From Carcharhinus amblyrhynchos (Eukaryota), in contig OZ336885.1 in the NCBI GenBank assembly GCA_965287045.1, positions 64,542,001-64,606,000 of the forward strand: DNA of 64,000 nucleotides, given 5' to 3'. The notes under the pieces were generated by a model that saw only the letters and a list, made by a program, of their open reading frames with translations, was not told the DNA's origin and made no database searches. The translations under genes were made by a program, and so were the position numbers. Of the stretch, positions 4,568-59,217 are shown in pieces. The stretch's first letter is position 1, and every line of letters starts with the position of its first letter.

Positions 4568-4633
4568 CTTTGCGATTCCACAACTTAATTTCATGCAGGC
4601 CAACATTGAAGTTATGTTTCTCCTTAGTTTTCT
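4568..4633 (-). CDS. 66-nt phase-1 exon, (E)KTKEKHNFNVGLHEIKLWNRK
   Basis: tgatttcttcag|AGAAAACT...CGCAAAG|gtaatt; duplicate of 7225-7290 with no indel or stop. Confidence 0.6.
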
Positions 4634-6240
4634 CTGAAGAAATCACAAGTATTCGAAATATACTCCCTCCGAATAGTGATTCACACGTCCTGCTGAGATC
4701 TCCAGGGTTTTTTTATTATTTGTTTGGATTCCTCCATTGATTTGTTTGGACAAAATAGACTAAATTTTCTTTACTTATGCCAGGGACTAATGGGCTGACA
4801 TCTGCAATATTGTCTACACTATAGGTCTAATGATAGAAGTGATAATGCAGTTCAAACAATTCAGAGAATAAACACTGCACTAATAACATGGGATGGAGGT
4901 TTTGACACATGCAAAATTTTGGGCAAACTAGGATGAATTTACAGGCGTTTCGTACAAGAAGAGTGAAAGTCAATGTAAGATTCCAGTTCATGAGCAGTTG
5001 TGAGGGAAAGGAAGTGAAGTGGATAAGTCCTCTTGTGCGATAATCTGGAACCAAAGTAACGTCTTATAAATATGCAATCGCTTGCATGTGACAGGGATTA
5101 TTCGTTTCCTCTTTATATGGGGACATAAAAACTTAGGGCTTTGGAGCTGAAGTAACTGATACAGGTGGCGGAGCCTTCTGCTTCATTTAATCCACCAATG
5201 ACCTATTTCTTCCTGCTGTCAGATCGAGCTGGTTACCTGTTCCTCATGTTCGTTATGAATTTAAATTTTTAGACAAGAAATACACCTATGTAGTTCTTGA
5301 AGAAAAAGCTTTAGGGTCGTTTGTGCTATGGGGCACAGAATTTCACAATATCACGACCATATGCGAGAATTAATTGCAACTCACATCGGTTTGAAATTCC
5401 ACGTTTCTCAATATGCAAATTTGAGCCTTATTTTCGAACAGTTTTCTGAAACTTCCTCAGTATCTTCCAAAAAACGAATTTAGAATAGTTTTATTTTTAT
5501 TTCTTTGTGAATAGGCATCCATTTTTTCCAACAAAAGCTCGTCCATTATCAATGGCAGGTGGATTCAGGTTTGTGGTTACAAATCAGAACAGATACGAAC
5601 CAATCAAACGATGAAGATTATCTGTGGGGGGGGGGGGGGGGTGGAGAGCGGGGGAGGGTGCGGGGGGACTGACTGTTCAAAATTATCCAGAGTTTTTGGT
5701 AGACTAATGAAATATATCTGCAGTGATTTAAAAGCCAAACCCAACTGGAAAAGCAGAAACTAAAACAAAATGCATACATTCAATTGATGAAAAGGAAATG
5801 ATGTCCCTTCCAATCTGAAATATACACTAAATTTCAACTTTTGATGGTAACCCATCAAGGATGAAAAACGAAACATTCCAGCACAATGAATAAAAATGTC
5901 ACTATTTAATGTTTGAGCTTCTATGTTTGCGACGCAATTGTAGAAACCCTACACTGTGCTTTAGTCATTTTTTTGCCCAGTATCGGTATGGTATTAAAGA
6001 TGAATTATTAACTGTCTCGTTTGAGTGAACATGTGGAAGCCGGCAGATTAATCGATATAATTACTTCAAAATAATGACGCTAGACAATTATTATTTAAGT
6101 ACGTTAGTAACAATTGAAATATTTACCCCATTGAAAAGTTCAAACAGTCAACAGTTATTCTTTATTTTGCAAAATGTCTTATCCCTTCCAACAGCTAATT
6201 CAAGTAACCAAATCATCATGCAGCTAAATCACATACTTTT

Positions 6241-6590
6241 AGAACAAAGAACAAAGAACAAAACAGTCCGAGAAACAGGCCTTTCGGCCCAACGAGCCTG
6301 CGCCGCCATTTTAACTCCGCCAGTGACCCCCCCCCCCCCCCCAAACCATGACCCTCATCTATTGTTTTATGGCTATCCACATTGAGGGAAACTAATTTAG
6401 GGACAATTTATTACTGCCAAGCTGCTTAATAGCACATCTGTGGGGTGTGGGAGGAAACCGGAGCACCCGGAGAAAACGCACGCAAGCACTGAGAGAATGC
6501 GCAAACTCCCACAGGCACTGGCCCAAACCCATGTATCTCCACAGCAAACAGTGATAGTCACTGAACTGTCGTCTTGCCCAGCATTTGGTC
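6241..6590 (-). mobile_element. HE1-like tRNA-derived SINE
   Basis: ggaggaaaccggagcacccggagaaaacgcacgca core; (agaacaa)n tail. Confidence 0.85.
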
Positions 6591-7154
6591 CCGTTTAAGC
6601 ACACACTAACGACATGAAGCACTAGGCCAATCTCGAACAACCAAGAGAAGCCCAAGTAGGACCCATCGCGTGTAATGGATTTCCATTTGTATCAAAGGAA
6701 AAAAAACATAATAATTAAACTGTTGGGATAATGAGTTGCATCCATCGCCATTGCTGTGGCTGGGGCTGGGTGCCTCAAACGTCCGTGGACACTCCCTCCT
6801 GGAATGTCAGAAAACAATTGTGCCGCAATTGTTCCTGCATACATTGACTTTTTTTTTATGGCGTCCTTGACGTATTCGTCAGCCACGGGAACCTTGTCCT
6901 CCCATTAGTATGCTTCTCCTTCATTGGGATGAATTTCTGTTGTGCCTCCCGAATAACTCTCTAAAAAAAAACCTTCCATTGTTGTTCCACTGTCTTCCCT
7001 GCTAGGCTCCCTTCCAAATCAACTCTGGCCAGCGCTTCCTCATGTCTTTCTATTACGAACGTGTTGATTGTAATATGTCCTCTTTTATACACCTTTTCTG
7101 TCTCCAAATTCATATTCCGCCCCATATCATGACTACTGCTCGGGAGTGGGGGCT

Positions 7155-7205
7155 GTGTGTGTGTGTGTATGTGTGTGTGTGTGGGCGGGGGGGGGGGGGG
7201 GGGGG
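7155..7205. repeat. (GT)n microsatellite followed by poly-G
   Basis: Read directly; lies ~20 nt inside the intron from the 7225 donor. Confidence 0.95.
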
Positions 7206-7224
7206 AGGTTGTTCAAAAAACTAC

Positions 7225-7290
7225 CTTTGCGATTCCGCAACTCGGTTTCATGCAGGGCAACATTGAAGTAAACTTTCTCCTTAGTTTTCT
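7225..7290 (-). CDS. 66-nt phase-1 exon, (K)KTKEKVYFNVALHETELRNRK
   Basis: tgatttcttcag|AGAAAACT...CGCAAAG|gtagtt; open frame; same length as its duplicate; donor is weak. Confidence 0.6.
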
Positions 7291-8889
7291 CTGAAGAAAT
7301 CAGAAGTACTCAAAATATACCCCTCTAAAATGTGATTCCCCCGTCCTGCTGAAATCCCAGTTTTGTTGTGTCCTTTTTTTTTTGACTTGCTGGGATTCCT
7401 GCATTTTGTTTTTTGACAAAATAGATGAACGTTCTTTTTCTTATTATACCAGGCACTAATGGGCTGAAATCTGCAATACGGTGCACACCATAGCTCTAAT
7501 TATAGAAGTGCTAATGCAGATGACACAATTCAGAGAGTATTCACTGCACGAATACCGAGGATGAAGGTTTTACCTCATGCAAAATTTTGGGCAAACCAAG
7601 ATGAATTTACTGCCGTTTATTACAGCAAGAGTGAATTTCAGTGCAACATTCCAGTTTATGAAGGTTTCTGAGAGAAAGGAGGTGAAGTAGATAAGTCCTC
7701 TCGCGTGTTCATCTGGAACCAACGGAACTTCTTATAAATATGCAATCGTCAATCTATAGCAGAGATTAGTCATTTCCTCTTTATATCAGGACGCAATACG
7801 TTCGGAGTTTGGAGCTGAAGTCGCCGATTCAGGTGTTTGACCCTTCTGCTTCATTCAGTCCAACAATGGCTTATTTCTTCCCGCTGCTAGAGCGAGCTAG
7901 CTACTTGCTCCCCATGTTATTTATGTACGTACTTATTTTTTTAGACTCAAAATATGCCTTTCTATTCCTTGAAAAAAAAACACGATTCAGGGTCCTTTGT
8001 ATTATGGGGCAACGAGTTTCAAAATTTGACTACCTTTTGCCGAGAATTAATTGCAACTCACCTCAGTTTGAAATTCCACTTTTCTCAATATGCAAATTTG
8101 AGCTTTGTTTTCAACTAGTGTTCTGAATCTTTCTCAGTATCTTCCAAAATACGAATTCGTTAGAGTGTTACTGTTGTTTCTTTATGAATAGGTATCCATT
8201 TTTTGAACGAAATGCTGGTCAATTATCAGTGACAGGTGGATGCAGATTTGTGGTTAAAATCAGAACAGATATGAGCCGATCAAACGATGAAGATTATATT
8301 GGTGGATGTGGGTGGGGTTGGGGGGAGAGGCGGAGGTGAAGGATCGAATGTTCAAAATTGTTCCAGCGTTTTGTAAAATGATGAGATATATCTGCAGTGG
8401 TTTAAAAGCCAAACCTCACTGGAAAAGCAGAAAAAAAACTCAGACATTCAGTCAATATGTACTGATTTTCAACTTTTGATGTTAACTGTCAAGAATGCAA
8501 AAAAAAAGTAACGTTCCAGCACAATGACCACAAATGTCATTAGTTCATACTTGAGCTTCTATGTTTGCCACGAATTTATAGAAACGCTACACTGTTCATA
8601 AGTCACTTTTTTTTATATACAACAACCGCGCAACCTTTGCCCAGGATCGGTATATTAAAGATAAATTGCTGACTGCATTGTTTGAGTGAACATGTGGAAG
8701 CTGGTAGAACAATCGATATACGTGCTTCAAAAAAACGATGCTTGACAATTATTATTTATGTACGATAGCAACAATTGGAATAGTTACCCATTGTGATGTT
8801 CAAGCAGTCCACATTTATTCTTTCCTTTGTGTTATCTCCTCCAACATGAAATTCGAGTAACCAAATAAACATGGAGTTAATTCACTTAC

Positions 8890-8916
8890 TTGTCTCGATT
8901 TCTTCCGACTCTTTCT
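8890..8916 (-). CDS. 27-nt phase-1 micro-exon, (K)KESEEIET
   Basis: cttttgcctcgacag-type acceptor|AGAAAGAGTCGGAAGAAATCGAGACAA|gtaagt. Confidence 0.75.
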
Positions 8917-10898
8917 CTGTCGAGGCAAAAAGTACACACACAAGATATACTACTGGATGTCCATTTGTAACAAAGGGAAAAAATGGAATAATTAAACTGC
9001 TTGAATAATGGCTTGCATCCATTGCTGGTGCTGGGGATGGGTGCTGCAAATGTTGGTGGACACTCCCTCCTGGAATGTCACAAAAAAAATTGTGCCGCAA
9101 TTGTCCAGCAGCTGGAAGTTGTCATTCGCAAGTTTCCAGTCCTAAAAAAAGCGAATCAAATTTTAAATTATAGCGATTCAGACGTGTTTACATTAATACT
9201 TACTGTTAAATAGATGGAAATAATAAGACTGCTACCCACCTCCAAATAAATATTTGTATTATGCAGCAACATTCCTACATAAAGGTCCTTTACCTGCCGA
9301 AATCGGACGAGATTCCACGACACATCTAAAAGTTAGGTCCACCCTTCCCCGAGGACATAATCGACTGGCTTTAGTTATGATCTTCATCGATCTGAACAGG
9401 GATATTCCCCGCTTTCCAACATGGTCGGGTTCCACTGCACAAGTAAACTTGATTCATCTGGAGCTTTCTTCTCAGAATAAACCTAACCTGACAAATTAAA
9501 AATGATAACACCCCGCCCAAAACACTCCAACTCCAATTTGGCCTGAACAACAAAACCCACATCGAAGCTCCCACATCCCAGAGATTCCCCTCAACCCAAA
9601 CGATTCGAAATAACGTTGCACTCACCACTACATTACATCACAAAATACTCAAAATCAATAATGAACTGTCCGTTAATTCATCATCCAGATGCGTCTCATA
9701 TCCGAAGACCAAAGGCACGCCACCCCTTCATCGCGCTGTTGCCTGAGGCACCCGCAACCTCCCAAGCACCAAACACGTGACTTTAACCCTTCTGTAGCGC
9801 CATCAGTTCGTCTTTCAGGAATTGAAATTTTAAGGCAATTTTTCATTGCCTGATACAGTTTTGTGGTCCGCTAAACTGCGGCTTTAAAATATTCTGCCGC
9901 TGTATTGGCGACCCACGAGACTGCCTGGGCTTTATTGGGCTTCAGTCAGGGAGATCATTTGATAGACTAACTTCGGATTTCTCCTTTCATGAAGACGAAT
10001 TCCCGTTCTTGCTCTTCTCATCCAACACAATGTGAATTTTTGAAAACAGCATCCTGCATCCTTGTCTTTTTTTTTCATTCAAGGTAAATTTTGCGAAATT
10101 TTGAATCTCCAGAATATCAGAGAAACTTTTTGAGGGAGGATGCATATCATAACACTGCAATAGTAGTTCCAACTCCTCTACATGTGACAGGCAATGATTT
10201 TCAATATTGCAGGCAGGCATTTCAGCTGACAAGAATGTCTGGAAGTTCCTGACAGTATGAATTATAATTGGAGTTGTGACATATCTCTACTACAATCGCC
10301 TATTGTAGCCTATCGGATTCCGAAAAGATTGAACACCGAACTCCTGTTTTTTTTTCTGCGAAAATGCTCTTACGATCTAAGAACATTCCACCCAACAGCC
10401 ACGAAATCTTCCAAAGCACCCAAGTTGCAATAGGAATCCGCCGTCCTGTATATCTTCAATTGCCCGACGATAGTATTTGTGCCAATTGCTCCTCGGAAAT
10501 TGTGGCCAAATGGAATACATAAAACATCAGTTGGCTAGTCGACGAAACGATTGCCGGTGGAAAATAACATGCCTTTCACGCGAACAACAGGTTATTCAAA
10601 CGTGCTGATTGGGCATTTGGATTTGCACTGGAACGCTTTCCCACTTTAGTGCATGAGTCATTATCACAGTACTTTTCTTGTTTGAGTGAACACGTGGAAG
10701 CTGGTAAAATAATCGATATACTCGCTTCAAAATAACGATGCTTGACAATTATTATTCATGTACCGTAGCAAAAATTGCATTAGTTACCCCATTGCGATGT
10801 TCAAGCAGCCCACATTGATTCTTTCCTGTTACCAATATATTTTCTCTTACGAACATGAAATTCAAGTAACCAAATCATCATGCAACTAAATCATTTAC

Positions 10899-10916
10899 TT
10901 TTCTCGATTTCCTTCT
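10899..10916 (-). CDS. 18-nt micro-exon copy with damaged acceptor, (K)KEIEK; possibly skipped
   Basis: gatgaagacttgacag|AGAAGGAAATCGAGAAAA|gtaaat; a deletion at ~10927 removed the polypyrimidine tract. Confidence 0.4.
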
Positions 10917-12471
10917 CTGTCAAGTCTTCATCGATCTGAACACGGGCATTCCCCGCTATGCAAACGGATCGCGTTCCACTGCACAACCATAATTACTTCA
11001 CCAGGAGTTTCCTCAGAAATATAACTAAACCTGCAAATTAAAAATGAGAGCACACTGCCCCAAAAACTCCCAGTACATTTTGCCCTGATCAACAAAAGCA
11101 GCATCGACGCTCCAAATTCACAGGGATTCCCCTCACCCCAAACCATTCGAAACAACTTTGCCCTCGCCCGTATAATACAACACAACATACACAAAATCCA
11201 CAATGAAATGTCTGATAATTCAGCATCAAGATGCGTCTCATATCCAAAGACCAAATGCGTGTCGTCCTTTCATCGCTTCGATGCATGAACGGCCTCCCCA
11301 GATGGGCCCATCCGCAACCTCGCAGGGATCAAACACAAAACTTTAACTCTTGTCTAGCTTCATCACTTCGGCTTTGACCAATTGGAAGTTTAATGCAATT
11401 TATCATTATCTGATGCAGTTTTGTGTTCCGCTAAACGGCGGCTTTAAAAGTTACTGCCGCTGTGGTGGCGACCCACTCGACGGTGTGGGCTTTATTGGGG
11501 TTCTTTCAGGGAGATCAATTGACAACGCAAAGTCGGATTTCTGCTTTCATCAAAATAAACTCCTGTTCGCGCTCTTGTCATCCAACACAAGTGAATATTT
11601 GGAAAACAGCATCATGCCTTTTTTTAAATTCTCTTTTTGTTTCATCCAAGGCAAATTTTGCGAACTTTTGAACCTCCAGAATATCAGAGAATCCTCTGAT
11701 AAGGAGAATGCATGTCACAGCAGTGCAATCGTAGTTACAACTCTTATAAATCTGTGACAGTCACTTCCTTTTTTAAAATTACAGGTCGGCATTTCAGCTG
11801 ACAAAAGTATCTGCAATTTCTGAAACTGTGAGTTATAATGAAAATTGGGACATGTCTCTACTACAATCGCTCATTGTAGCCTATCGGATTCCAAAAAGGT
11901 TCAGCACCTAACTCCTGTTTTCTCTGAAAATGTCCATTTACAGTCTTAAGAAAATTGGACCCAACAACCACAACATTCTTCGGAAGAACTCGCATTGCAA
12001 AAGGAATAACGTGGTCCTGCATATCTTTAATTGCCCGACGATAGTAATTGTGTCAATTGTTCCTTGGACATTGTAACCAAATGAAATAAATAATGCATCC
12101 CTTGACGAGTCGGCGAAACGATTACCGGTGGAAAATAACATGCCTTTGACGCGAACAACAAGTTATTCAAATGTGCTGACTAGGCATTTGTATTTGCACT
12201 GGACTGCTTTCCTCTTCAGTGTATGTGTCGCTATCGCAGTACGTTTTTTTTTTGTCTGAGTGAACACGTGGAAGCTGGTAGAATAATCAATATACTTGCT
12301 TCAAAACAACGATGCTTGACAATTATTATGTATGCACCTTAGCAACAATTGCAATAGTTACCCCATTGCGATGTTCAAGCAGTCCACGTTTACACTTTCC
12401 TTTGCAAAACATCTTATCCCTTCCAACATGAAATTCAAGTAACCAAATCATCATGCAGCTCAATCACTTAC

Positions 12472-12489
12472 TTTTCTCTGTTTCTTTCT
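12472..12489 (-). CDS. 18-nt phase-1 micro-exon, (K)KETEK
   Basis: tttttgccttgacag|AGAAAGAAACAGAGAAAA|gtaagt. Confidence 0.7.
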
Positions 12490-13402
12490 CTGTCAAGGCA
12501 AAAATTAAATTGACAAGATACAATGATGGTTGTCCATTTGAAACAAAGGAAAAATAAAGCAATGATTAAACTGCTTGAATTTGGCTGGCAACCATCGCAT
12601 TTGCTGGCGCTGGGGTGATGTGCCCCAAATGTGCGAGGGAGAACGGATATCATAACAATGCAATAGTCGTTCTAACTCTTCGATATCTGTGACAGACAGT
12701 GATTTTCAAAATTACAGGCAGGCATTTCAGCTGACAAAAAAATCTGCAAGTTTCTGCAACTTTGAGTTATAATTAGAATTGTGATATATCTCTACGACAA
12801 TTGCTTATTGTAGCCTAACGGATTCCGAAAAGAATTAACACCTAATTCCTGTTTTCTATGAAAATGCCCACTTACTGTGTTAGGAAAATTACACCCAAGA
12901 ACCACGACATTTTTCAAAAGAGTTCACATTGCCATAGGAATCGCGTGGTCCTGTATATCATCACTTGCCCGAGGATAGTATTAGCGCCAATTGCTCGTTG
13001 GGCATTGTAGCCATATGGAATACATAAAACATTCCTTGACTAGTCGATGAAACGATTGCCGGTGGAAAATAGCATGCCTTTGACGCGAACAACAGGTTAT
13101 TCAAATGTATTGACTGGGCATTTGTATTTGCACTGCACCGCATTCCTACTTCAGTGTACGTGTCGTTATCACAGTACTCTTCTTGTTTGAGTGAACACGT
13201 GGAAGCTGGTAGAAGAATCGATATACTCGCTTCAAAGTAAAGATGCTTGACAATTATTATTTATGTACCTTAGCAACAATTACAATATTTACCCCATTGC
13301 GACGTTCAAGCAGTCCACATTTATTTTTTCCTTTGCAAAACATCTCATCGCTTCCAACATGAAATTCAAGTAAGCAAATCATCATGTAGCCAAATCACTT
13401 AC

Positions 13403-13420
13403 TTTCCTCTGTTTCTTTCT
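13403..13420 (-). CDS. 18-nt phase-1 micro-exon, (K)KETEE
   Basis: tttttgcctttacag|AGAAAGAAACAGAGGAAA|gtaagt. Confidence 0.7.
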
Positions 13421-14333
13421 CTGTAAAGGCAAAAATTAAAATTACAAGATATAATGGTGGATGTCCATTTGGAACAAAGGGAAAAAAACACAATAATTAA
13501 ACTGCTTGAATAATGGCTTGCAACCATCGCAATTGCTGGTGCTGGGGATGAGTGTCCTAATTGTGCGAGGGAGAACGCATATCGTAACACTGCAATAGTA
13601 GTTCCAACTCTTCGATACCTGTGACAGACACTGGTTTTCAAAATTACAGGCAGGCAATTCAGCTGACAAAATAAAATCTGCAAGTTTCTGCAACTGTGAG
13701 TTATAATTAGTGTTGTGATATATCTCTACTACAATTTCTTCTTGTAGCCTAAAGGATTCCGCAAAAAAAAACACCTAACTCCTGTTTTCTACGAAAATAC
13801 CCACTTACTATCGAAGAACATTACACTCAACAACCACCACATTCTTCTGAAGCACTCACAGTGCAATATGGCTCACGCGGTCCTGAATATCTTCACTTGC
13901 CCGACGATATTAATTGCGGCAATTGAGCCTCGGACATTGTAGCCAAATGGAATGCATAAAACATCCATTGACTAGTTGGCGAAACGATTGCCGGTGGAAA
14001 ATAACATGACTTTCACGCGAGCCAAAGGCTATTCAAATGTGCTGACTGGGCATTTAGATTTGCTGTCGACCACTTTCCTACTTCTGTGTATGTGTCGCTA
14101 TCGCAGTACTTTTCTTGTTTGAGTGAACACGGAGAAGCTGGTAAAATAATCCGTATACTTGCTCCAAATTAAAGATGCTTGACAATTATTACTTACATAT
14201 CTTAGCTACAATTGCAAAAGTTACCCTATTACAATGTTCAAGCCGCCCACATTTATTCATGCCTTTTCAAAATATCTTATCTCTTCCAATACGAAATTCA
14301 AGTGACAAATCATTATGCAGCTAAATCACTTGG

Positions 14334-14360
14334 ATTTCTCGATTTCTTCCGCCTCTTTCT
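14334..14360 (-). pseudogene. Inactivated 27-nt micro-exon copy (donor GT replaced by CC)
   Basis: tttttgccttgacag|AGAAAGAGGCGGAAGAAATCGAGAAAT|ccaagtga versus gtaagtga in sister units. Confidence 0.75.
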
Positions 14361-16369
14361 CTGTCAAGGCAAAAACTAAATTCACAATATATAATGATCG
14401 ATGTCTATTTGTCACAAAGGAAAACAAAAACAAAATAATTACACTGCTTGAAGAATGGCTGGCAACCGTCTCAACTACGGGTGCTGCGGATGTGTGCCCC
14501 AAATGTGCGAAGACACCCCCTCGTGGAATGTCACAGAAAAATACACAATTTGTGCCGCAACTGTTCAGCAAACTGAAAGTTGCCATTCACAAGTTTCTTG
14601 TCCTAAAAAAAATAAACGATTCAAGTAGTAAATTTTAGAGATGCAGAAACGTTCGAATTAATACTTACTGTTAAATAGATAGAAACAATGAAACTGCTGC
14701 CCACCTCCAAATCAATATTTGTATTATGCAGTCAGACTCCCACATGAAGATCCTTTGTCTCCTGATATCGGATGTGACTCCACGAAACTTTTAAAAAGCC
14801 CACCCCACACCGAGATCTTAATCGACTGGATTTAGTTATGATCTTCATCGATCTGAACACGGACATTCCCCGCTATGCAAACGGATCGCGTTCCCCTGCA
14901 CAACCGTAATGGATCCATCTGGAGTTTTCCTCTCAGAAATATAACTAAACTGGCAAATCAAAAATGGCAGCACCCCGCCCCAAACACTCCCACTGCATTT
15001 TGCTCTGATCATCAAAACCAGCAACGAAGCTCCCACATCCCAGGGATTCCCCTCACCTCAAATGATTCTAAACAACCTTGCCCTCACCAGTATAATACAC
15101 CACAACATACCCAAAGTCCACAATGAGATGTCTGATAATTCATCATTCAGTTCCCTTTCATATCCGAAGACCAAAGGCATCGCGTCGATGCCTGAACCGG
15201 CCTCCCCAAATACTGCCATCCGCAACCTCCCAACTATTAAACACATAGCTTTAACTCTTATGTAGCGCCATCACACCGGAATTCTCAAATTCAAAAATCA
15301 ACGCAATTTTTCATTATCTGATACAGTTTTGTGGTCCGCTGAACGGCAGCTTTAAATGATTCTGCTGTTGTGGTGATGACCCACTCGACTGCCTGGGCTT
15401 CACTGGGCTTTCGTCAGGAAGATCAGTTGACAGCCTAACTTCGGATTTCTTCTTTCATCAAGATGATCTCCTGCTCTCGCTCTTCTCAGCCGACACAATG
15501 TGAATATTTGGAAAACAACGTCACACATGTTTTTGATTTTTTTTCATCCAAGTTAAATTTTGCGAAGTTTTTAATCTCCAGAATATCTGAGAAACATCTG
15601 TGGGGGAGAATGCAGATCATAACACTGCAATAGTAATTCCAACTCTTCTACATCTGTGAAAGACAGTGATTTTCAAAATTATAGCAGACGTCTCAGCTGA
15701 CAAAAATATCTGCTATTTTCTGAAACTGTGAGTTATGATTAGCATTGCGACATATCTCTCCTACAATCGCTCATTACAGCCTATCGGATACCGAAAAGAT
15801 TTAACACCTAACCCCTGTTTTTCTACGAAAATGCCGACTTACTACCTCAGAGCATCACACCCAACAACCACAACATTTTACTAAAGCACTCACATTGCAA
15901 TAAGAATCACGCGGACCTCTATGCCTTCAATTGCTGGACGATAGTATTTGCGCCAATTGCTCCTCGGTCATTGTAGCCAAATGGAATACATTTCTTGGCT
16001 CGACGAAAAAAACGATTGCCGGTGGCAAATAGCATGCCCTTCAAGCGATCAATATGTTATTCAAATGTGCTGACTGGGCACATTTGAGTTGGATTTGCAC
16101 TGGACCGTTTTCCTACTTCAGTGCATCTGTCGCGGTCACATTACATTTCTTGTTTCACTCAGCACGTGGAATCTGGTAGAATAATCGATATACTTGCTTC
16201 AAAATAAAGATGCTTGACAATTATTATTTATGTACTTGAGAAACAGTTGCAATATTTGCCCCATTACGACGATCAGGCAGTCCACATTTATTCTTTCCTT
16301 TGCAAAATATTTTATCTCTTCCAATATGGAATTCAAGAAACCAAATCATCATGCAGCTAAATCACTTAC

Positions 16370-16387
16370 TTTTCTCTATTTCTTTCT
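16370..16387 (-). CDS. 18-nt phase-1 micro-exon, (K)KEIEK
   Basis: ttctgcctcgacag|AGAAAGAAATAGAGAAAA|gtaagt; phase 0 has TAG. Confidence 0.7.
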
Positions 16388-47995: not shown

Positions 47996-49649
47996 ATAAA
48001 CTGTTTTAAATCCTCACGTCTTTGTTACTTCAATTAATAATCAAGGGAAAAGAGAAATGTTCCATCGGCGCAGAAAATGACGCCAGGTATGCAAGCTGTG
48101 TTAGATTCTCTCATACCTAGTCCACGTCAGCTTAGAGACAATTTGCGTATGCCATCTTTTGGGACCTGACCTTCCAAAAGCATTTGCACGAGCCAAGTTG
48201 CTTGATGATCAGCAATGCATCAGGGAAACTCTTGAAATTTCGATAAACATTGGAAGAACAATTGCCATCTAAATCGGTCTACTTTCCTGAAGCGTTTGTG
48301 CAAACCGAGTTACATAAGGTTGGACGTTTCATCAGGGGTCCTCTTAAAACTGGGTTAATAGTTAATCCTATTTTATTGCAAATTCTAAATGCAGAAATTT
48401 GTCCCAGAAACTGAAATCCATTTCACAACTTGGCGGCAAACATTTTGAGGGGAGCATTTGTCATGACAAAGTTGCCAAGAAAATATTTCACTTTATGTGG
48501 TTTATTTATATGTTAAACAGCTTGTACGAAAGAAAAGACAAAAACATGTCTGTTGTCTGTGCGCGCTGCAGCTTGAGGGGTGGGGTGGGGTGGTGGGGGG
48601 GAGGGTGGGGTGGCGAAGCACAGTGAAAATATATATGGGCAGAACCTCGTTGAACAACTGCGCAAGATCGGACGTTTCAGACAATTACAGCTCAGCGCTT
48701 GACGAAAGACAGCGTTCCGAAACTCGGTCTGTGATTCAAATCTGAGCTCTGTGAGTTTTTGTGCGCACGTGCTTGGACTTCATTGACTGATGTCCCGCAG
48801 ACATGGGCATCGCTTAATCAACGTCACGTGGCATTTTAGGAACATGTTACAAGCCAATATTTTTCACATGTGCGAATATGAACATCTGGATTTTCAATAT
48901 TAACAACATATTGGATACAACTTAACGTGCTAGGCAAAATTAAAAAAAAACACAAGTAACAGTTGGATTATTAAAAAAAAGTTTTTTTTTCACCTCAGGA
49001 CGAAATGGAAGCTTCTGGATTGTAATTAATCAAGCAGTCGTAGCATATTAGTATGCAGCTTAGAGCAGATATAACAGGAAGTGAATGGAATGTGAAAGTT
49101 ATCACTGAAGGAATTTAATATGAAGGTAACGAAGTTTGTTGCAACAAACGAAGTGTCTCCTCTTTACCCAGGGTCAACATAACTGGAATGAAAGGTTAAA
49201 CATTAATTTTGCCCCCTCACCAATCCACATTTCGCTGGGTGCAAACCGACATTACAGGCCAATTGCCGCTTTTACAGGAGCCTTCAAAATATCGTGTTTC
49301 AAACTAGTTGTAAACGCAGAGACCATGTTAGAAATTATAAATATTTCGCATGCTTCATTCAGCAGCTCTTTCTGACCCCGTGACTATCTGCGTCACGTAG
49401 AGGTGGAAAAAAAATTGCAGAAACTAGACAAATTTGCTCAACTTTCTTGGCCATTCTTTGTCTTTGTTTTAATAAACAAAGAACAACGAATCAGTTTAAT
49501 TGCCAATGCTGCAAAGTCATTAGCATCCAAAACAGTCCCTTTCGAAAGCTGATCTCATGAATTTAACAATGCTTAATTCCGACGCACAGCCCGTGTCATC
49601 TCTGCGTGTGTGTCTCACACAATATGATTGACAGCATTCTTATAAGTCC

Positions 49650-50570
49650 TAAGACGTTAACTGAGGTTGACTGGCCATGCTATGTTGACCCTAATGTCAG
49701 GGGATTACATTATAAACGCGTGTTGTTGTGGTTGTGGGATCTGGGTGGCATTGTGGTCACTACAGACTGGATGGGCCGAATGATCTCCTCCTGTACTGCA
49801 TCGATTGTATGATTGTATGAGTCTTTGGCTAAGAGAATAGATTAGACCAATAAATGAGCGGCAGAAAAATAGCGTACAGATAGAACAGTTATTAAATACA
49901 GCGCATGCATTTTGAAATCTAGATAAATGAATAGATTACAAAAGTAAGCTAGTGCTGATGGAACTAAAAACACTACAGGCGCACTTGTAGTTTTGAGTAC
50001 AGTTTTGGTCAGTTATAAGAGGACAGATGCAGTGGCATTGTAGGCAGTTTAAAGGAAATTCGCCAATTTGATTGCAGAGATGGCTTATTGCCATCTAAAG
50101 GCAGATTGATCAGTTTGGACCTGTATTCGCCAGAATTTAGAAGAATGAGAGGGGGAATCAAATTGAGGTATAGAAGATGATAAAAAGCAAAAAAAAAACT
50201 TGGACGGATCTTCCTTTTGTGAGACATTGTAGGCCGAGATGTTATCGTCTTGGAATAAGGGATAGCAAATTTAAATATATTTGAGGAGATATCCAACTGA
50301 GCATTTGTGCGTGACGGAACATTACAGCAGGATGCCAACGAGGATTGTGCCGAATGGTAAGAGTCGTGAATAACAACTTCGCCAAAAGCGTTGTGAATCT
50401 GTGAAATTCGCTACCCAAAGAGTGATGAATGCTGAGGCAGTGGAGTTACACATATTTTTATTCTTTAACAAAAGGTTTTGAAAGGTTATGGCGAGAAAAC
50501 AGAAAAGTGGGAATGAAGGGCCTTTTCATCCATGAACGAACGACAGATGTATTAGGTGGGTTGACATACC
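49650..50570 (+). mobile_element. SINE 3' remnant (~49650-49820) followed by a very old CR1 3' fragment
   Basis: gatgggccgaatgatctcctcctgtactg; gaatttagaagaatgagaggg; gttgtgaatctgtgaaattc. Confidence 0.65.
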
Positions 50571-51409
50571 TAATTCTCTCGGAAATCTTTCGTTGTTGTG
50601 AAAAATGTCAAATGACATTAATTAGTTAAGAACACTAACTGAAAAACGTCGATACCCATGTGATAAGCAGTGAGGATTCACATCACGCAGATCGTTAAGG
50701 CTGCATGATCGAGACGGAAACACCCTCTTTCCGTACATTTACGTTTCCAATGGGGAGAGTCAGCGAAAAGAGGAAATTAGATTATACAAGACAGAGACTC
50801 ATACAACTTCATTAGCTATGGATTCCCCGCCCTGCTACCGCTCAGAAAGCGCTCATTCATGCACTTACGTCATATCCGAACTGATGATAACACATTTCAA
50901 AAGGCATGTTTATGTTTTCCTGATAGAACATTTCGCTCAAAACCTACACAGTGTTTTTGATGGACCATTCATCCCATTGGCTGACAACAATTTCTGGCTT
51001 GTGTGCCTTCCAACTTGTACTCAATTGCAGAAACATAATGGCATCCCTCGTCCTCACTTTCAACCAAAATCCTGTGCATTAAAATGACTATTTTCCACCA
51101 ATTTCGTCATCTGCCAACCCTGAACACACATTCCCCAGACGATACTTACCATTCGGCAGCAATCCTCGTTGGCATCCTTTTGTAATGTTCCATCACGCAC
51201 AAATGCTCAGCCCCTTGCCATGACACTTTTCCTTCCAACATCAATAAGTGCGGCACCAACCCCTTCAATTACCCCATCGTCATCGTGCAGGAGAAACACT
51301 GTTACACGTCCTTTAATTTTGATTGTTGTGTTCCATGTTCCCAATGAAATCTCCACCGTATTCGATAATCAGTGTTTCACTGATGATGTTGATGATGACA
51401 TTTTCCATA

Positions 51410-54400
51410 GTCGGAAATAACCATCTGGTTCACTCACGTCCTTTAGGGCAAACCATCTGCCATGCTTACCTGGCCTGGCCTAATTGTGACTTCAGAGCAA
51501 CAGTAAGCTTGCTGAATCTCAATGGCCCTCAGAAATGGCCTGGCAACCATTCAGTTGTATCATTCGCTAACAAGTATCAACAAAAAAAAACCGGATGGAA
51601 CGACTAACATCAGCCTGGGCACCATAAAAGAAAACAGCAAATAATCATCCCCGACAACTCTGCAAAGAACGTCTTTTTAACATCTGGGGGCTAGTATCAA
51701 CATTAGGGAGCTGACTCACGTATTAGGCAAACAACAGCCTGTTATTATCATTCTCATGAAATCGTATCTTACAGATAACATCACAGACAGCAACGTACCA
51801 AGATTTGTTTTGACCCAGCAGCAGCACTGACCCAGCAAATGTGTTCATATTGTGGTGTATAGTCAGGAGCGATTTGCCCAAGGAGTCCTTAACATTGAAT
51901 CTGGAAGCCGTGAAGTCTCGTTTGAGGATTAATATTGCCAAGGAAACCCGTTGCTGTTTACTATGTACAGTCTTTCTTCGGCTGATTAATAAATAGTCCA
52001 TGTTGAACAACACTTGGAGGAAGCACTGAGAATGGGAAGGGCGCAAAATGCGCTCTTAGTGGGGCATTAATTGCCCACTACCAAGAGTGGCACGGCAGCA
52101 GCACAACTCATCGGGCTGGCCAAAATCATAGAACTGATACTTTGGGTCTGCAGCAGTTGGTTGAGGATCCAACAAGAGGGAAATAAAACATACTTGAACT
52201 CAGCCTTACCAATCTGCCGGCTGCAGATGCACCTGCCCATGACAGTATCGGTCACAATGACCATCACACATTCTTCTGGAGACGAAGTCCTGCCTTCACA
52301 TTGGGAATTACCTCTAAATGTTGTGTGGCACTATCACCATTATAAATGGAACTGACTTCGAACTGATCTAGCAACCCAAGAATGAATATCCAAGATGGGC
52401 TGTGGGTCATCAGCAGCAGCGGAACTACACTCCAACAAATCATGGTATGGCATATCCCTGACTCAACCATTGCTATCAAGCCAGGGGATAAACCCTATTC
52501 AATGGAGAGTGGAGGGGGGCATGTGAGGAGCAGCAGCAGGCCTAACTAAAATGAAGCGTTATACTGGTAGCTACCAAACACAAATACGTGCATGCCAAAT
52601 GGCAAAAAAAGAACAAGTAATAAACAGAGTTAAGCGATCCCACAACGAACGTGTCGGATAGAAGATCTGCAGTTCTTGAACGTCCAGTCGTGAATGTTGG
52701 TGAACAATTAAACAATTCGTTGGAGGAGGAGGCACCACAAGTATCCGTGCTCTCAATGATGGAGGAGACCAGCACGACAGTGCAAATGATAAGGCTGAAT
52801 ATTAGCAGCAATCCTCAGCCAGAAATGCAAGGTATATAATCCATCTCGGCCTCCTGAAATGGTCCTCAACATCTCAGATGTCAGTCGCAAGTCAATCCGA
52901 TTCGCTCCACGTGATATCAAGAAATGGTTGCAGGTACTGAATGCTATGAAGGCAATAGGCGCTGATAACACTCTGACAACAAGACTGAAGACTTGTGCTC
53001 CAGTACTTGCTGCTCCACTAGCCAAGTTTTTCCAGCATAGTTACAGAACTGGCTTCTGTCCGACAACGTGGCAAATTGTCCAAATATGTCCTGTGCACAA
53101 AACGGAGGACAAATCTAACACTGCCAATCAGTCTATCCTTGATCATCTGTAAAGTGATGGAAGAGATCACTGAGAGTGCTATCAAACAACACCTGTTCAG
53201 TGTTGCACAGTTTATGTTTTGGCAGAGTCACTTAGGCCCTGACCTCATCACAGTTTGGTTGAAACGTGGAAGAATCAGCTGAATTCCAGAGATTAGGTGA
53301 GAGTGACCGGCCTTAACATTAGGACGCATTTCATCACGTATGGTTTCAAGAATCCCGAACCAAATTGGAGTGAATGAGTAAATGAAGAGAAACACTCCGC
53401 TGGTTAGATAAATATCTGATACATGGGCAGAATGGTACAGTTGTGGAGGGTCAGTCGTTCCTGATCCAGGGCACCTCTGCAGGAAACCCTCAGGGTCGTG
53501 TCCTAGACACTAAAAATCTTCAGCTATTTCATCAAAGACTTCCCCCGCCATAAGGTCGGAGGTGAGGATGTTAGCCAAAAAATTGCACAATGTTCAGCAC
53601 CATTCGCGACTCCTCAGACACCGAAGCAGTCCTATTTTTGAGGCAAAAAGGTAAGGACGATATCGAGGCTTGTTCTGACAAGTGGCAGGTAACATTACTG
53701 CCGCACAAATGACAGGCAGTGACCATCATCAATAAGAGACACTCTAACGGCAACCACTTGACCTCCAATGGTGTTATCATCACTGATTCCTCCATTGTCA
53801 ACATGCTTGTCGTTATCGATGATCAGAAGCTCAACTGATCTCACCAAATAAACACAGTGGCTACAAAAGCAGGTTAAAGGCTGATAATTTTGTGGCGAGT
53901 AATTCCCCTCCTGAACCAAAACTTTACCACCATCTACAAGGCACAACCCAAGAAGGTTATGGCACACTGCATACTCGCATGAATGGGTGCAGCTCCAGCA
54001 TAACTCAAGAAACTTGACACCACCCAGGAAAAAGCAACTCACTTGATTGGCGCCACATCACAGGAATCCATTCCCTCCACCACCGACGCTCAGCAGCAGC
54101 AGTGTCTACTGTCTACAAGATGCACTGCAGAAATTCCCAAAGTTCCTGGGACGCCACCTTCCAAATCCACGACCACTTCCATCTAGAATGGGAGTAGTAG
54201 CGCATACCTGGGGTCAACATCGTCTGCGGTTACCCTCCAAGCCACTCACCATCTTGTCTTATAATATATCGCCATTCCTTCACAGTCAAAGTCCTGCAGT
54301 TTTCTCGCCAATGGCACTGTGGGTCAAACAGCAGCCCATGGATTGCAGGGATTCAAGATGACAGCTCGCCACAACCTTCTCAATTGCGTATAGGTATGTA

Positions 54401-54452
54401 CAATAAATGCTGACCTGCCAGCGACGTCCATGTCCCGCAAATGAATTCTTAA
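51410..54452 (+). mobile_element. Long decayed CR1/L2-type LINE (endonuclease + RT + 3' end)
   Basis: KAIGADN...LKTCAPVLAAPLAKFFQHSY; ends aataaatgctgacc...gaattcttaaaaa; interrupts the A/C homology. Confidence 0.85.
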
Positions 54453-54964
54453 AAACCTACAACGTAGAGACTAAATATGGCTTACTATTTGTTGATTCAT
54501 TCAGCAAGTGAATGATAACTATTTCGTTTTCCAAGCAATCTAAACACGTGTCCTTCTTATATCATGCCGTTTCTGTTTCTTCCCTGTGGCAACTGCTGCA
54601 GTGAAGCTCAGTTCAAATTCGAGGACAAAAATGTTTTTTTTTCACGTCATCTTGGTGTCTCAGCCCATTAAAATCAATACACATTAATGAAATTTTTATT
54701 GAGGCATTTTCTCCTCCAATGTAATAATGCGCTTTCATTTACATTCAATAAAATGCAGTATGCACTCCGCCAGTGTCCCTATGAAGCAGGCTCTCACTTC
54801 CCCATACGTTTACCTTTCAAGAGACTTGCCTTCGTTCTTCTATCAACATTTTGTGAACGCGATATACAAAGGACAAATTGCTGCACCCAGGCCCAACTGT
54901 TTCAACACATGTCATGCAGCAGCACATCGAGGTTAATTTACGCCCCAGTTAAATATGTACCTTG

Positions 54965-55930
54965 AACCCAGTTATCTAGGGTCAGTTGCGTAAGTCCAAA
55001 TATCTCCAACTCATTCATCAAAGGCCTTCCCTCCGTTACAAGCTCTGAAGTAGGAAAGTTCGCCACGTTTGAACAATGCTCAACAGCGTTCACAACACCT
55101 CAGATACCAAAGCTGGGCATGTTCAAAAGCAAAATTATCTTAACAATTTCAATGCTTGATCTGGCAAGTGGAATGTCACATTAGCGTCAGACAAATTCCA
55201 GGTAATAACCACCAGCAATAAGAGCTACTCCATCCACCAATACTTGGTGTCCAATTGTCTTACCAATACCGAATCCACGACTGTCAACATCCTTGAGGTC
55301 ACCATTGACGCACTGGACGCTCTAATTAAAAACAGTGCCGACAAGAGCACTTGAGATGCCAGGACGTATTGCATCGAGTAATCTTGAGAATCCTCAAGAC
55401 TATCCACCAGTTGTAAGTCGCAAGTCAGGGATGTGATTGAAAACTCCCAATATGCCCGGGTGGGTGCAACTCCGGAAACACAAAATAAAAGCTTGACGTA
55501 ATCCAGGACAAAGCAGAATGTTTGGCAAGCGCCACATCAACAAACATTCAATCCCTCCGCCACCGACACTCAATCACAGCAGTGCGCAATACCGACAAAA
55601 TACACTGCAGCAATTCATCAAAAATCCGTAGAGAACACCATCCAAATCCACCACCCCTTCCATCAAAAAGGACAAGGACACGGGTAAATGGGAAGACGAC
55701 TATCTATTTTGACACGATACGGTATCTTCCACTCCAAGCAACTCACCGGCCACACTTGGGAATATATCCCTTTTCTTTTTCAGTCACTGGATCAAAATCT
55801 TGGAATTCCCACCCTAAATGCATTGTGGACAAACCACAAAACATAGACACAACGAATGAAGAAGCACGCCACCACATTCTCAAGGCAAACAACACATCGG
55901 CAATAATATCTGCCAGCCACCGGCGCTCAT
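54965..55930 (+). mobile_element. Second, more decayed 3' fragment of the same LINE family
   Basis: ttcatcaaaggccttccctcc, caatccctccgccaccgacactc, ccaaatccaccacccctt match 53530-54400. Confidence 0.8.
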
Positions 55931-56659
55931 TTTTTTTTGTTTGAATTCCTGCGTTTTTAAATGGGACAACATTAGCTAAAATTGGCTTCATTTCACCGAG
56001 AACTAATAGGCCGACAGATAGAATAGTGTGTACATTTTGGTCGAATTTTAAGTGAAAATGTAAATGTGTTTGAACCAGTTCAAGATTATTTGCAGATTAT
56101 TAACTGGTTTGGACGATTTGTGTTATGTATATTTGCATAAATCACAATTGATTCGAACGTGTTGTTAGAATTGCAACAGTGAAATTTTCAGACACATTTA
56201 AGTTCTTGAGCAATTTTGAATGACTGGTGTTGAAGTCACTGGTTCCTTTGTTGTCATAATTTAGAACCACAGGTACCTCTTACAGATGTACAATCGCCTA
56301 TCTATAACAGATTTTTTTTTGTCCGTTGTGACATGGGAAACAGGATGTTAGGAATTCGGAACTGAAGCAGCCAATTCAACTGTTGACGCCGCTGTATCAG
56401 AGTATGTCTAACTTATTCCCGGTCTCAGATCTACACCACTATGTGGTCTCCATGTTTGTTTGTTTTTAACATAAATATACCTATGTCATTCTTGAAACCA
56501 TTTAATGACTCAGGCTTCGGAATACAATTAGGCAGCGAGTTGCAAATTTCACTAACTTCAGCGAGAATTAAGTTCAACTCATCTCAATTCGAAATTTTTC
56601 GCCTCTTAACTGTAAATGTGACTTCTTGCTCTCTCATATTTAAAGAGTTTCTGCAAATA

Positions 56660-58418
56660 CATAAACTGCAAAAGAGTAACAATGGAGAGAGTAGGGCCTT
56701 TAACGACCAACAAAATCATCTTTGTGCCGAACCATAAGAGCTGGGCGATATTCTAAATTAATATTCCTCATCCGTGTTTACTGGTGAGAAAAGCACGGTT
56801 GTTAGGAAGCTTGGGGAAATAAATATTAATGTCTTAAGCAGTGGAAATATGACAAAGAATGGTGTGCTGGAGGTCTTAAAGCGCACCAAGGTAGACAAAT
56901 CCCCAAGACAAAATGGAAGGTATCCCAGGGAGTTGTGGGAGACTAGGGTGGAAATTGCGCGTCCCCTAGCTGTGATATTTGAGTTATCGGTAGTCACAGA
57001 TGAGGTCCCATAAAATTGTGTGGTGGGGGGGCGGGGGGGGCGGCAAATCGCGTGCCTCTCATTTGAAAGGGCTGCGGTGGATAAATTGTTGGAAGACATT
57101 TTGAAAGACAGCATCTACAGGCATTGAGAAACTCAAGAACTGATTTGGGACAGTCAGCATGGCTTTCTGAGTGTAAAATCAGTCTCGCAAATTTAACTGA
57201 ATTTTTGAAGGGGTAGCCAAGAAGGTCGACAAGGGTAGTGCATTTGATATGGTCTACATTGAATTTAGCACGGCCTTTGACAAGTACCGCATGTTCCGTT
57301 GTTGTATCAGGTTAAATATTACGGGATCCCGGATGAGGTATCTAAATGGGTGCAAAATTGGCTTCTTGGCAGATGCCAGAGGATGGTTGTAGAGATTTTA
57401 TTTCAAACTGGAGGCCTGTGACCAGGGATCAGTGCTGGCTCCGCTGTTATATTTCTTATTTATGAATGATTTGGATGAGAATACGGGAGGCACTGTTAGT
57501 ACGTTTGCAGATTAGAGAAAGATTGGTGGTGTATTTTTTGTGAACAAAGTTATCTCCAATTGTAACAGGACTTTGATCAATTGTGCCAGTGGTCTGATGA
57601 ATTGCAGATGCAGTTTAATTTAGACAAATGCGAGGTGACGCGTTTCAGTGGATTGAAGGACAGGTCTTAATCAGTTAATGGTAAGAAGTTGGGGACAGTT
57701 ATAAACAAAATAAAAACAAGGAGCACATGTGCATAGCTCCTTGAATGTGCAGTCTCAGGTGGAAGACTTTCAGCATGTTTGGTCTCATCGATCAGAACAT
57801 TGAATGCAGGAATTGGAATGTCTTGTTGAAGTTATACAATTCATTGGTAAGGCCACACTTGGAATATTGTGTGCAATGCAGAGGACACTATTATAGAAAG
57901 AATATTATTAAACTAGGCAGAGTGCAGAAAACATTTACTAGGATGCTAATGGCACTTGATGAATTGAGTTATAATGAGGAGTTGGATATACTGGAACATT
58001 TTTTTCTCTGAAGTGTCGGAGGCTGAGGGGTGATCTTATAGAGATCTACAAAATAATGAGAGGCACAGATCAGCTTCACAGTCAATATAATTCCCCAAAG
58101 GCAAGGGAGGCTAAAACTGGAGGGCATAGGTTAAAGGTGAGAGGAGAGAGATACAGAAGTATCCAGAGGGGCACTTTTTTTGACGCAGAGGGTGATGAGT
58201 GGCTGAAACAATCTGCCAGAGCTAATTGTCGAGGCGGGTAGAATTCTATATAAAAAAAAAACATTAGGTGGTAACAGGGATACAATGCGTGTAGAAGCAT
58301 ATGGGACAAATGCGGGCAATTGGGATTGATTTGATTGTTAAAATAAAACGGCATGAACAAGTTGGGCCGAAGGGCCTGTTTCCATGCTGTAAATCTCTGT
58401 GTATCTTTGATTCCATAT
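56660..58418 (+). mobile_element. Old CR1 LINE, same subfamily as 28660-32360
   Basis: [17 protein letters not shown], 3' tail gttgggccgaagggcctgtttccatgctgta. Confidence 0.92.
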
Positions 58419-59190
58419 AATTTGTGAATAGTTTACAGCACCATCCAAAAAAAAAATCAACATGAGCGAAATTTATGTGTTATTTGTGTATTGATCAGTG
58501 GCAGGTGGGTACAGAGTTTTGATTAGTATCAGATCAGACACAAACTGATCAAACGATGAAGAATGTGACAGGTGTAGAACGGTTGAATGCTGAAAATTGT
58601 TCCAAAAGTTATTTGTAAAATAATGAGCTCATGCGTCAGTGACGGAAAGCCAACCGCAACTATCAAAAGCTAATTTCAAACGGAACTATTCGATCACTTC
58701 CTTAAAAGGGAAATATATCCCTGTCAAAATGACATAATTTCTGCATGACAACGTTTAATTGTAAACCATCAATAATGACGAAAATATCAGTGAATTTCCA
58801 GGACAGTGAAAAATGTCACTCTCTTATGATTGTGCGTGTTTGCCAGGCAATAATAGGAAAAAAAAACGAAATCTGCATGAGGCAATTTAATTTCATGTCA
58901 TGCAACAGCAGCATCACTTCTGCAGAGGAATTGGCATAATTTCAAAAGCAAACTCTGGTTTCATTCCTTTGAGTGAGAGGATGGGAGACTGTGAATAATC
59001 TATTTGCTTCCTTCAAAATGGCAACGCTTAATAATACGTTTTATGCATTATATGAAATAAGTAAAATTGATGTTCGAATTTAATTTCAAGCAATCCTCAT
59101 TTCTTTTCTTTTTTTTTCCGTTCTGAATTTATTTACAACGTTCAACAAGAAGTTCAATTGACCACATCAGCATCAAGCAGAATCCCTTAC

Positions 59191-59217
59191 TTTCCTCTTT
59201 TTCTGCCGCCACTTTCT
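59191..59217 (-). CDS. 27-nt phase-1 micro-exon of coiled-coil gene, (x)KVAAEKEE
   Basis: tttctcccttgacag|AGAAAGTGGCGGCAGAAAAAGAGGAAA|gtaagg; paralogous to 35721-35747 and 8890-8916 with the same length and splice sites. Confidence 0.8.

What the first reader, a model, noticed from the sequence alone, without database searches (positions are those of the whole stretch)
4568..59217. Hidden micro-exon gene spread over 55 kb that splices into a coiled coil
Seen: eleven AG/GT-bounded minus-strand exons, all multiples of 3 and open in phase 1. Joined they read xKVAAEKEE-KLKGCEKDIKDS-KSEVAELEK-KVKQCQTESTDF-KKEIEK-KKETEE-KKETEK-KKEIEK-KKESEEIET-KKTKEKVYFNVALHETELRNRK-EKTKEKHNFNVGLHEIKLWNRK. The a/d heptad register L,C,I,S,V,L,V,C,S,F,I runs unbroken across introns of 8-11 kb. 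Established: tiny symmetric exons build the cytoplasmic heptad tails of butyrophilins/MOG/chicken BG proteins, and 63-nt exons build the CD23 stalk. Inference: a shark BTN/BG-like receptor (ELRNRK recalls the ELRWR/ELKWK segment before B30.2) or a type II lectin-like receptor, probably missed or mis-modelled by automated annotation.
Basis: partly seen in the sequence, partly recalled or inferred. Interest (0 to 1): 0.9.

Follow-up and report, generated by a model that had tools for sequence, protein, structure and literature searches.

The report
Megabase shark micro-exon coiled-coil gene
The window holds a slice of an array of about 100 tiny exon-like segments, spread over nearly a million bases, that likely form one gene and would spell a very long coiled-coil rod whose length changes as exons are copied or lost, probably ending in a B30.2 recognition domain, which was not located here.

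Summary
All 11 AG/GT segments are at the stated places and are open in phase 1. Two are 66 nt, one has lost its pyrimidine tract, and one has a broken donor in a close relative.

They are the middle of an array that spans at least 936 kb (window coordinates 722,800 to −213,630). At a strict score, minus-strand candidates of 21/27/36 nt number 44/30/23, against 2/2/4 on the plus strand; 95 of 100 are open in phase 1. About 100 exons would give a rod of roughly 900–1,000 aa with hydrophobic a/d positions. Nine segmental duplications each added 63 nt (three heptads). Paralogous 21-nt exons lie at 62.1 and 65.6 Mb.

It is not a canonical butyrophilin or BG gene: no BTN-type IgC on this contig, the MHC is on another contig, and the heptad register differs from BG. 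Neither end of the gene was reached. A B30.2 end is inferred from two SPRY-type motifs further down the contig and from three unchecked earlier notes, which found similar genes in other shark genomes. No RNA evidence was available.

The parts
1..64000 (-). The whole window lies inside the array. It continues upstream beyond base 64000: a 36-nt exon at 85157, nine duplicated units with a 36-nt and a 27-nt exon each (93,042-232,817), and about 45-50 21-nt heptad exons (257,719-722,800). It continues downstream below base 1: about 33 more 27/36-nt candidates and three Thr/Ser/Pro-rich 30-nt exons (-2,935 to -213,630). Neither end was reached.
59191..59217 (-). 27-nt phase-1 micro-exon
   Evidence: acceptor score 8.9, donor 4.4
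45534..45569 (-). 36-nt phase-1 micro-exon (Cys class)
35721..35747 (-). 27-nt phase-1 micro-exon
27734..27769 (-). 36-nt phase-1 micro-exon (Cys class), weak donor
16370..16387 (-). 18-nt micro-exon; reads as the 27-nt class less 9 nt; breaks the heptad register
13403..13420 (-). 18-nt micro-exon
12472..12489 (-). 18-nt micro-exon
10899..10916 (-). 18-nt copy without a pyrimidine tract, probably decayed
8890..8916 (-). 27-nt micro-exon
7225..7290 (-). 66-nt phase-1 exon
6197..6240 (-). remnant of an 18/27-nt copy (donor side only), cut by a high-copy repeat
4568..4633 (-). 66-nt exon, duplicate of 7290-7225 (86% alike with flanks); donor changed in a close relative
5956..18200 (.). tandem 0.9-2-kb intronic duplications that carry the 18/27-nt copies

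Best explanation
The 11 segments lie inside an array of about 100 phase-1 symmetric AG/GT micro-exons spanning at least 936 kb, which likely form one gene and would encode a coiled-coil rod of about 900-1,000 residues, probably ending in a B30.2 (SPRY) domain that was not located here. Shown: the array, its strand, length and phase bias, the heptad pattern, its growth by segmental duplication with decayed copies, and paralogous exons at 62.1 Mb (minus) and 65.6 Mb (plus) on the same contig. Inferred: splicing into one transcript; dimerisation through the Leu/Cys a/d stripe; a role as spacer or ruler that holds paired B30.2 domains at a set distance, as TRIM and butyrophilin coils do, most likely in innate-immune recognition; and length tuning by exon gain, loss and skipping. 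Skipping is possible because every exon is in frame and 121 of 123 candidates end in G, A or C, so their junction codons cannot be stops.
For: Length and strand excess over 1,014 kb, score >7: 44/30/23 minus against 2/2/4 plus for 21/27/36 nt; other lengths average 3.65. Open in phase 1: 95 of 100, against 63 and 50 in the other phases. Leu at codon 1 in 28 of 50 21-nt exons, using all six Leu codons, which points to constraint on the protein and not on a DNA repeat. Hydrophobic fraction 0.77 and 0.66 at the two core positions, at most 0.25 elsewhere; no stop in 123 auto-selected exons taken in order. A tight 36-nt pattern hits 12 places genome-wide, all in this array, control 0. All 18 exon copies in nine units keep AG/GT, length and frame; the units are 93-98% identical; 36-nt pN 0.086 against pS 0.218; 27-nt exons differ by 0.021 against 0.06-0.07 for introns. 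Paralogs. Two minus-strand SPRY-type motifs lie at C16:61.08 and 60.45 Mb, the first 1.0 Mb below the 62.1-Mb exons, which is the size of this array (pattern from a recalled motif; 232 hits against 20 control).
Against: No transcript evidence, and neither end of the gene was found. There is no Ig, SPRY, lectin or clear membrane exon in 1,014 kb: motif scans and Pfam on 89 outer ORFs found none. PRY, SPRY and B-box searches list nothing on C16, but scored only 150 of 373, 376 and 486 candidates. Motif patterns give no hit between 62.1 and 64.3 Mb, where this gene's own B30.2 should lie. The two C16 motifs were seen as 33-base matches only, and could belong to unrelated TRIM genes or arise by chance. 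36-nt exons differ more overall (0.113) than their upstream introns (0.06). Three in-window copies are decayed, and one donor is lost in a relative. About 20-25 of the 123 auto-selected candidates are expected background. No protein relative was found.
Confidence: 0.5

Rival explanations
1. The rod is the extracellular stalk of a type II membrane or secreted protein (CD23/CD209-, scavenger-receptor- or tetherin-like). It would be cross-linked by the d-position cysteines and end in a lectin or other domain.
For: Cys at d in 17 of 50 21-nt exons. Three Thr/Ser/Pro-rich 30-nt exons resemble a mucin patch. A possible 87-nt form of the 5'-most 21-nt exon reads as basic residues followed by a hydrophobic run. 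The 27+36 pair gives 63 nt, the CD23 stalk unit (recalled). A CD33/Siglec-like cluster lies 2.7 Mb or more away.
Against: N-glycosylation sequons are not enriched: 3 against 5.0 +/- 2.1 in shuffles. No C-type lectin match on C16 (59 matches from 150 of 211 candidates). The hydrophobic run overlaps a pyrimidine tract, contains an Arg and has a weak acceptor (1.8). Cysteines also occur in cytoplasmic BG tails (PMC5938342).
Confidence: 0.22
2. It is a BG/MOG-like type I receptor (IgV, membrane segment, giant cytoplasmic heptad tail) whose Ig and membrane exons lie in the unread 240 kb above 65.34 Mb.
For: Dozens of 21-nt split-codon heptad exons are the BG design (PMC4046983; PMC5938342). The V-set search scored only 150 of 1,793 candidates. 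The stretch 65.34-65.57 Mb was not read.
Against: The register differs from BG. No BTN-type IgC on C16. The MHC is on C9, while shark butyrophilins are mostly MHC-linked (PMC12841164). No IgV motif or Pfam Ig match in the 70 kb above the first exon.
Confidence: 0.13
3. It is a structural rod with no globular end (for example in testis, egg case or skin), or several shorter genes laid head to tail.
For: No domain in 1,014 kb. Rapid exon turnover. No relative in the protein collections.
Against: Exon classes follow one polar order (21, then 36/27, then 18, 66, 27/36, 30, 27/36 nt) with no internal start or terminal exon seen, and minus-strand density exceeds plus in all 20 full 50-kb bins. SPRY-type motifs lie below the paralogs.
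Confidence: 0.12
4. It is a decaying pseudogene or a by-product of duplicated intronic repeats.
For: Dead copies at 14360, 10916 and 6240. Donor loss in the relative. The youngest classes are near-identical copies.
Against: The old 21-nt exons are divergent, yet keep length, phase and Leu through six codons; 50 of 51 are open. All 18 young copies are intact.
Confidence: 0.03

Closest known systems
Chicken BG genes (butyrophilin family; PMC4046983, PMC5938342, passages read)
   Same: A coiled coil built one heptad per 21-nt split-codon exon, dozens of exons, variable exon number, cysteines in the tail.
   Different: BG has about 29-38 repeats, an IgV and a membrane segment, is MHC-linked, and has a/d at codons 4 and 7. 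Here: about 100 exons of 18-66 nt over at least 936 kb, a/d at codons 2 and 5, no Ig found, not on the MHC contig.
Butyrophilins and TRIM/B30.2 proteins (PMC4046983, PMC12841164, passages read)
   Same: Heptad repeats that lead, as inferred here, to a B30.2 domain.
   Different: Butyrophilins have IgV-IgC, a membrane segment and a few heptads; this genome's BTN-type IgC domains lie on C46, C53, C9, C12 and other contigs. No RING/B-box was seen on C16 (incomplete scoring).
Schistosome micro-exon genes, MEGs (PMC4350168, passages read)
   Same: Most of the coding region lies in very small symmetrical exons that can be skipped in frame.
   Different: MEGs are described as restricted to flatworms. 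There is no sign of homology; skipping is not shown here; this gene spans about a megabase and has a heptad pattern.
Giant micro-exon coiled-coil (B30.2) genes noted earlier by this scan in other shark genomes
   Same: Dispersed 21-, 27- and 36-nt phase-1 exons and a long coiled coil.
   Different: Those notes are unchecked AI notes; one gives about 300 kb and reports a B30.2 end. Orthology was not shown (one search found no look-alike), and this array is at least three times longer.

Membership tests
Butyrophilin (BTN/BTNL) | BTN-type IgC domain | tested here: not met
   PF22705: 87 of 87 candidates scored, 35 matches, none on C16
Butyrophilin (BTN/BTNL) | IgV domain and membrane exon upstream of the heptads | tested here: inconclusive
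   None up to window coordinate 794,000; V-set scored 150 of 1,793; 65.34-65.57 Mb not read
Butyrophilin (BTN/BTNL) | Only a few heptads, then B30.2 | tested here: not met
   About 100 exons; no B30.2 within 220 kb below the window
Butyrophilin / BG | Usual linkage to the MHC | tested here: not met
   MHC class I 80 of 80 matches on C9; exceptions to linkage are known (PMC12841164)
Chicken BG | Many 21-nt split-codon heptad exons | tested here: met
   44 minus against 2 plus at score >7; 50 of 51 open in phase 1
Chicken BG | a/d residues at codons 4 and 7 of the exon | tested here: not met
   Hydrophobic positions are codons 2 and 5, counting the split codon as 1 (PMC5938342)
Coiled-coil + B30.2 proteins (TRIM-like) | Terminal PRY-SPRY exon | tested here: inconclusive
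   Not in the DNA read; family searches incomplete; SPRY-type motifs at 61.08 and 60.45 Mb only
TRIM | N-terminal RING/B-box | tested here: inconclusive
   No C16 row among 150 of 486 B-box candidates scored
Type II C-type lectin receptor (CD23/CD209) | C-terminal lectin domain | tested here: inconclusive
   None on C16 among 59 matches; 150 of 211 scored; split exons score weakly
Type II C-type lectin receptor (CD23/CD209) | Signal anchor and glycosylated stalk | tested here: inconclusive
   One weak hydrophobic candidate at 722866; sequons 3 against 5.0 expected
Micro-exon gene (MEG-like behaviour) | Alternative splicing that yields a pool of variants | not testable with these tools
   No RNA run could be laid on the locus

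The most novel reading that the evidence does not exclude
A chondrichthyan family of megabase micro-exon genes, the vertebrate counterpart of schistosome MEGs. About 100 freely skippable in-frame exons, plus copy-number change of whole 63-nt units, would make a repertoire of variable-length coiled-coil rulers carrying B30.2 recognition heads, clustered near the Siglec-like genes rather than in the MHC.
Probability: 0.2. Interest if true: 0.88.

Novelty: new variant of a known kind. Interest (0 to 1): 0.66.

Why it matters
If it is one gene, it is a megabase vertebrate gene made almost wholly of 18-36-nt exons, which ordinary homology search does not see: three protein searches found no relative, and literature searches found no description of it. 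It shows exon birth and death within one locus: nine duplications that each add three heptads, register-breaking 18-nt derivatives, dead copies, and a donor lost between close relatives. It extends the BG design of one heptad per exon to a cartilaginous fish, outside the MHC and in another register. That makes it testable whether such tails arose once or several times, and whether rod length is tuned by splicing.

Tried and rejected
RNA: no RNA holder listed. The one run found (X1) covers introns continuously and shows no splice joints, so it is genomic DNA of a close relative; it says nothing on expression.

Protein searches: the ORF around a 66-nt exon gave 34 candidates, none at E<=10. A profile of eleven 36-nt-class ORFs gave 2,881 candidates, none at E<=10. 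The same profile on 1.84 billion representatives gave 4 hits; three are teleost IgD-type Ig repeats and one is an unnamed repeat protein, all rejected as artefacts of summed weak repeats. These queries are mostly intron-derived residues around 11-21 real ones, so the blanks are weak.

Genome searches: a loose 21-nt pattern was swamped by background (267 hits against 163 control, list cut at C4). One SPRY-motif list was cut before C16. Seven stretches fetched as possible butyrophilin IgV seeds gave none: one is NKp30-like by PDB search, and the others were judged by eye to be other V types or held no V domain. DNA searches with two 3' exons found only a local duplicate or self. The sequence around the two C16 SPRY-type motifs could not be read.

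Leads dropped: human TSBP1/C6orf10 and triadin (both recalled) were considered; one search gave no usable paper and there is no MHC linkage, so they were dropped untested. Candidates at -65020 (165 nt) and -189812 (55 nt) were considered as membrane or terminal exons and rejected, because more micro-exons follow. Splice scores use my own approximate vertebrate consensus weights (recalled), not a trained model.
Full report
Observation. The window is G000:C16:64,542,001-64,606,000 of a 2.92-Gb genome. All 11 segments are present with AG/GT ends and are open in phase 1. Their lengths are 27, 36, 27, 36, 18, 18, 18, 18, 27, 66 and 66 nt. The copy at 10916 lacks a pyrimidine tract. Two further copies (14360 and about 6240) are dead, and all of these sit in tandem 0.9-2-kb duplications. 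In the window alone the excess over chance is small.

Extent. I read 1,014 kb of contiguous DNA around the window. From 5' to 3' on the minus strand there are: about 45-50 exons of 21 nt (722,800 to 257,739); nine 36+27-nt pairs (232,817 to 93,042); a 36-nt exon at 85,157; the window's exons; and about 33 more 27/36-nt candidates with three Thr/Ser/Pro-rich 30-nt exons, down to -213,630. Neither end was reached. Minus-strand density exceeds plus-strand density in all 20 full 50-kb bins (3-12 against 0-4).

Is it more than chance? At splice score >7, candidates of 21/27/36 nt number 44/30/23 on the minus strand and 2/2/4 on the plus strand; other lengths average 3.65 on the minus strand. Of 100 minus candidates of 18/21/27/36 nt, 95 are open in phase 1, 63 in phase 0 and 50 in phase 2. 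In the 21-nt class, 50 of 51 are open. Codon 1 is Leu in 28 of 50, through all six Leu codons; codon 3 is Lys in 29; codon 4 is Cys in 17. Taken in order, the 53-exon block has hydrophobic fractions of 0.77 and 0.66 at two positions three apart, and at most 0.25 elsewhere. The 3.5-residue periodicity is partly built in, because the exons are seven-residue homologs. A looser automatic set has 123 candidates (1,063 aa, no stop), of which about 20-25 are expected background; 121 of 123 end in G, A or C. A tight 36-nt pattern matches 12 places in the genome, all in this array, control 0.

How it grew. The nine units are 12-22-kb segmental duplications, 93-98% identical to one reference unit, and carry an LTR-element remnant present in eight copies. 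Each unit added 63 coding bases, or three heptads. All 18 exon copies keep splice dinucleotides, length and frame. The 27-nt exons differ by 0.021 against 0.06-0.07 in flanking introns. The 36-nt exons have pN 0.086 and pS 0.218, but differ more overall (0.113) than their upstream introns (0.06); this evidence is modest and the copies are not independent. In a genomic run of a close relative, the donor of the second 66-nt exon is changed (one contig; 40 of 353 differences shown). Together with the dead copies, this points to continuing gain and loss of exons.

Family. A tight 21-nt pattern gave 11 genome hits, control 0. Nine are on C16: three at 62.06-62.10 Mb (minus), five in this array, and one at 65.576 Mb (plus). 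Reading there showed further 21-nt exons, and the plus-strand one is 88% alike over 42 bases to an exon of this array. So at least three paralogous arrays are likely. MHC class I is on C9. The Ig cluster at C16:68.0-69.3 Mb is CD33/Siglec/MAG-like (one domain tested).

End domains. No Ig, B30.2 or lectin exon was found in the DNA read (motif scans; Pfam on 89 of 89 minus-strand ORFs of 105 aa or more in the outer 140 and 80 kb; ORFs crossing locus edges were missed). The BTN-type IgC family was scored in full and has no match on C16. PRY, SPRY, V-set, Lectin_C and B-box searches list none on C16, but each scored only 150 candidates. Three earlier unchecked notes on other shark genomes proposed a B30.2/SPRY end. 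Testing that lead with a recalled SPRY motif gave two C16 matches, both minus, at 61.08 and 60.45 Mb (232 hits against 20 control; the list passed C16). The first lies 1.0 Mb below the 62.1-Mb paralog, which is the size of this array. No match lies where this gene's own end should be, and the DNA around the two motifs could not be read. The B30.2 end is therefore inferred, at a little better than even odds.

Mechanism. Shown: array, phase, heptad pattern, duplication history and paralogs. Inferred: one transcript; a dimeric rod with a Leu/Cys core, a Lys/Glu-rich stretch that breaks the register (the window's 18-nt exons) and a short Thr/Ser/Pro hinge; a terminal B30.2 domain held at a distance set by rod length; and length tuned by exon gain, loss and in-frame skipping. 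That B30.2 domains act as recognition modules is established knowledge (for butyrophilins: PMC12841164, passages; for TRIMs: recalled). An immune role for this gene is untested. Rivals are an extracellular stalk (cysteines and a mucin-like patch, but sequons 3 against 5.0 expected), a BG-like receptor with unread Ig exons, a domain-less structural rod or several genes, and a pseudogene.

Comparison and novelty. It works like the chicken BG tail, one heptad per 21-nt split-codon exon (PMC4046983, passages; PMC5938342, passages). It fails the BG register, the BTN IgC and the MHC-linkage tests, so it is not filed as BTN or BG. Its gene structure resembles schistosome MEGs (PMC4350168, passages), with no sign of homology. 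Nine literature searches (listings only, apart from the four papers named) found no description of such a gene. The library lacks most subscription papers, and no supplements were read; genome-paper supplements or database annotations may list it. The scan itself noted similar genes in other shark genomes. Verdict: a real feature, a new variant of the heptad micro-exon design, interest 0.66.

Noticed in passing
window coordinates 95,000-242,000 (L014-L028): The duplicated units carry a decayed LTR-retroelement remnant (integrase and RNase H by Pfam; eight copies, 87-94% alike to the reference copy), amplified with the exons. It may have seeded the unequal crossing-over.
   Followed up: partly
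L017:4882-7773 (minus) and L090 (plus, window coordinates 780,243-783,143): Two long open LINE ORF2 frames of 964 and 967 codons; the first has endonuclease and reverse-transcriptase domains by Pfam. These are probably young insertions.
   Followed up: partly
G000:C16:67.98-69.29 Mb (L096-L098): A cluster of at least 11 C2-set Ig exons; the one tested is closest to CD33, MAG and Siglec-5 in the PDB.
   Followed up: partly
G000:C9:89.6-101.1 Mb: MHC class I cluster (80 matches), with large PRY/SPRY/B-box expansions at C9:96-112 Mb and on C41, C46, C53 and C73; BTN-type IgC genes on C46 and C53.
   Followed up: no
G000:C3:57,902,732-57,905,173: A 38-bp tandem array whose unit contains an AG-21 nt-GT stretch. 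It is probably a minisatellite, but would read as 21-nt exons with 17-nt gaps.
   Followed up: no
window coordinates -111,454 to -116,910 (L083): A local duplication places 135-nt AG/GT-bounded stretches, open in phase 1, next to the 30-nt Thr-rich exons; it is unclear whether these are exons.
   Followed up: no
window coordinate -59,720 (L008): A 36-nt Cys-class exon with a GC donor.
   Followed up: no
window 2500-4200 and 29,000-35,000: LINE-type fragments on both strands, including several of the inverted repeats found.
   Followed up: no
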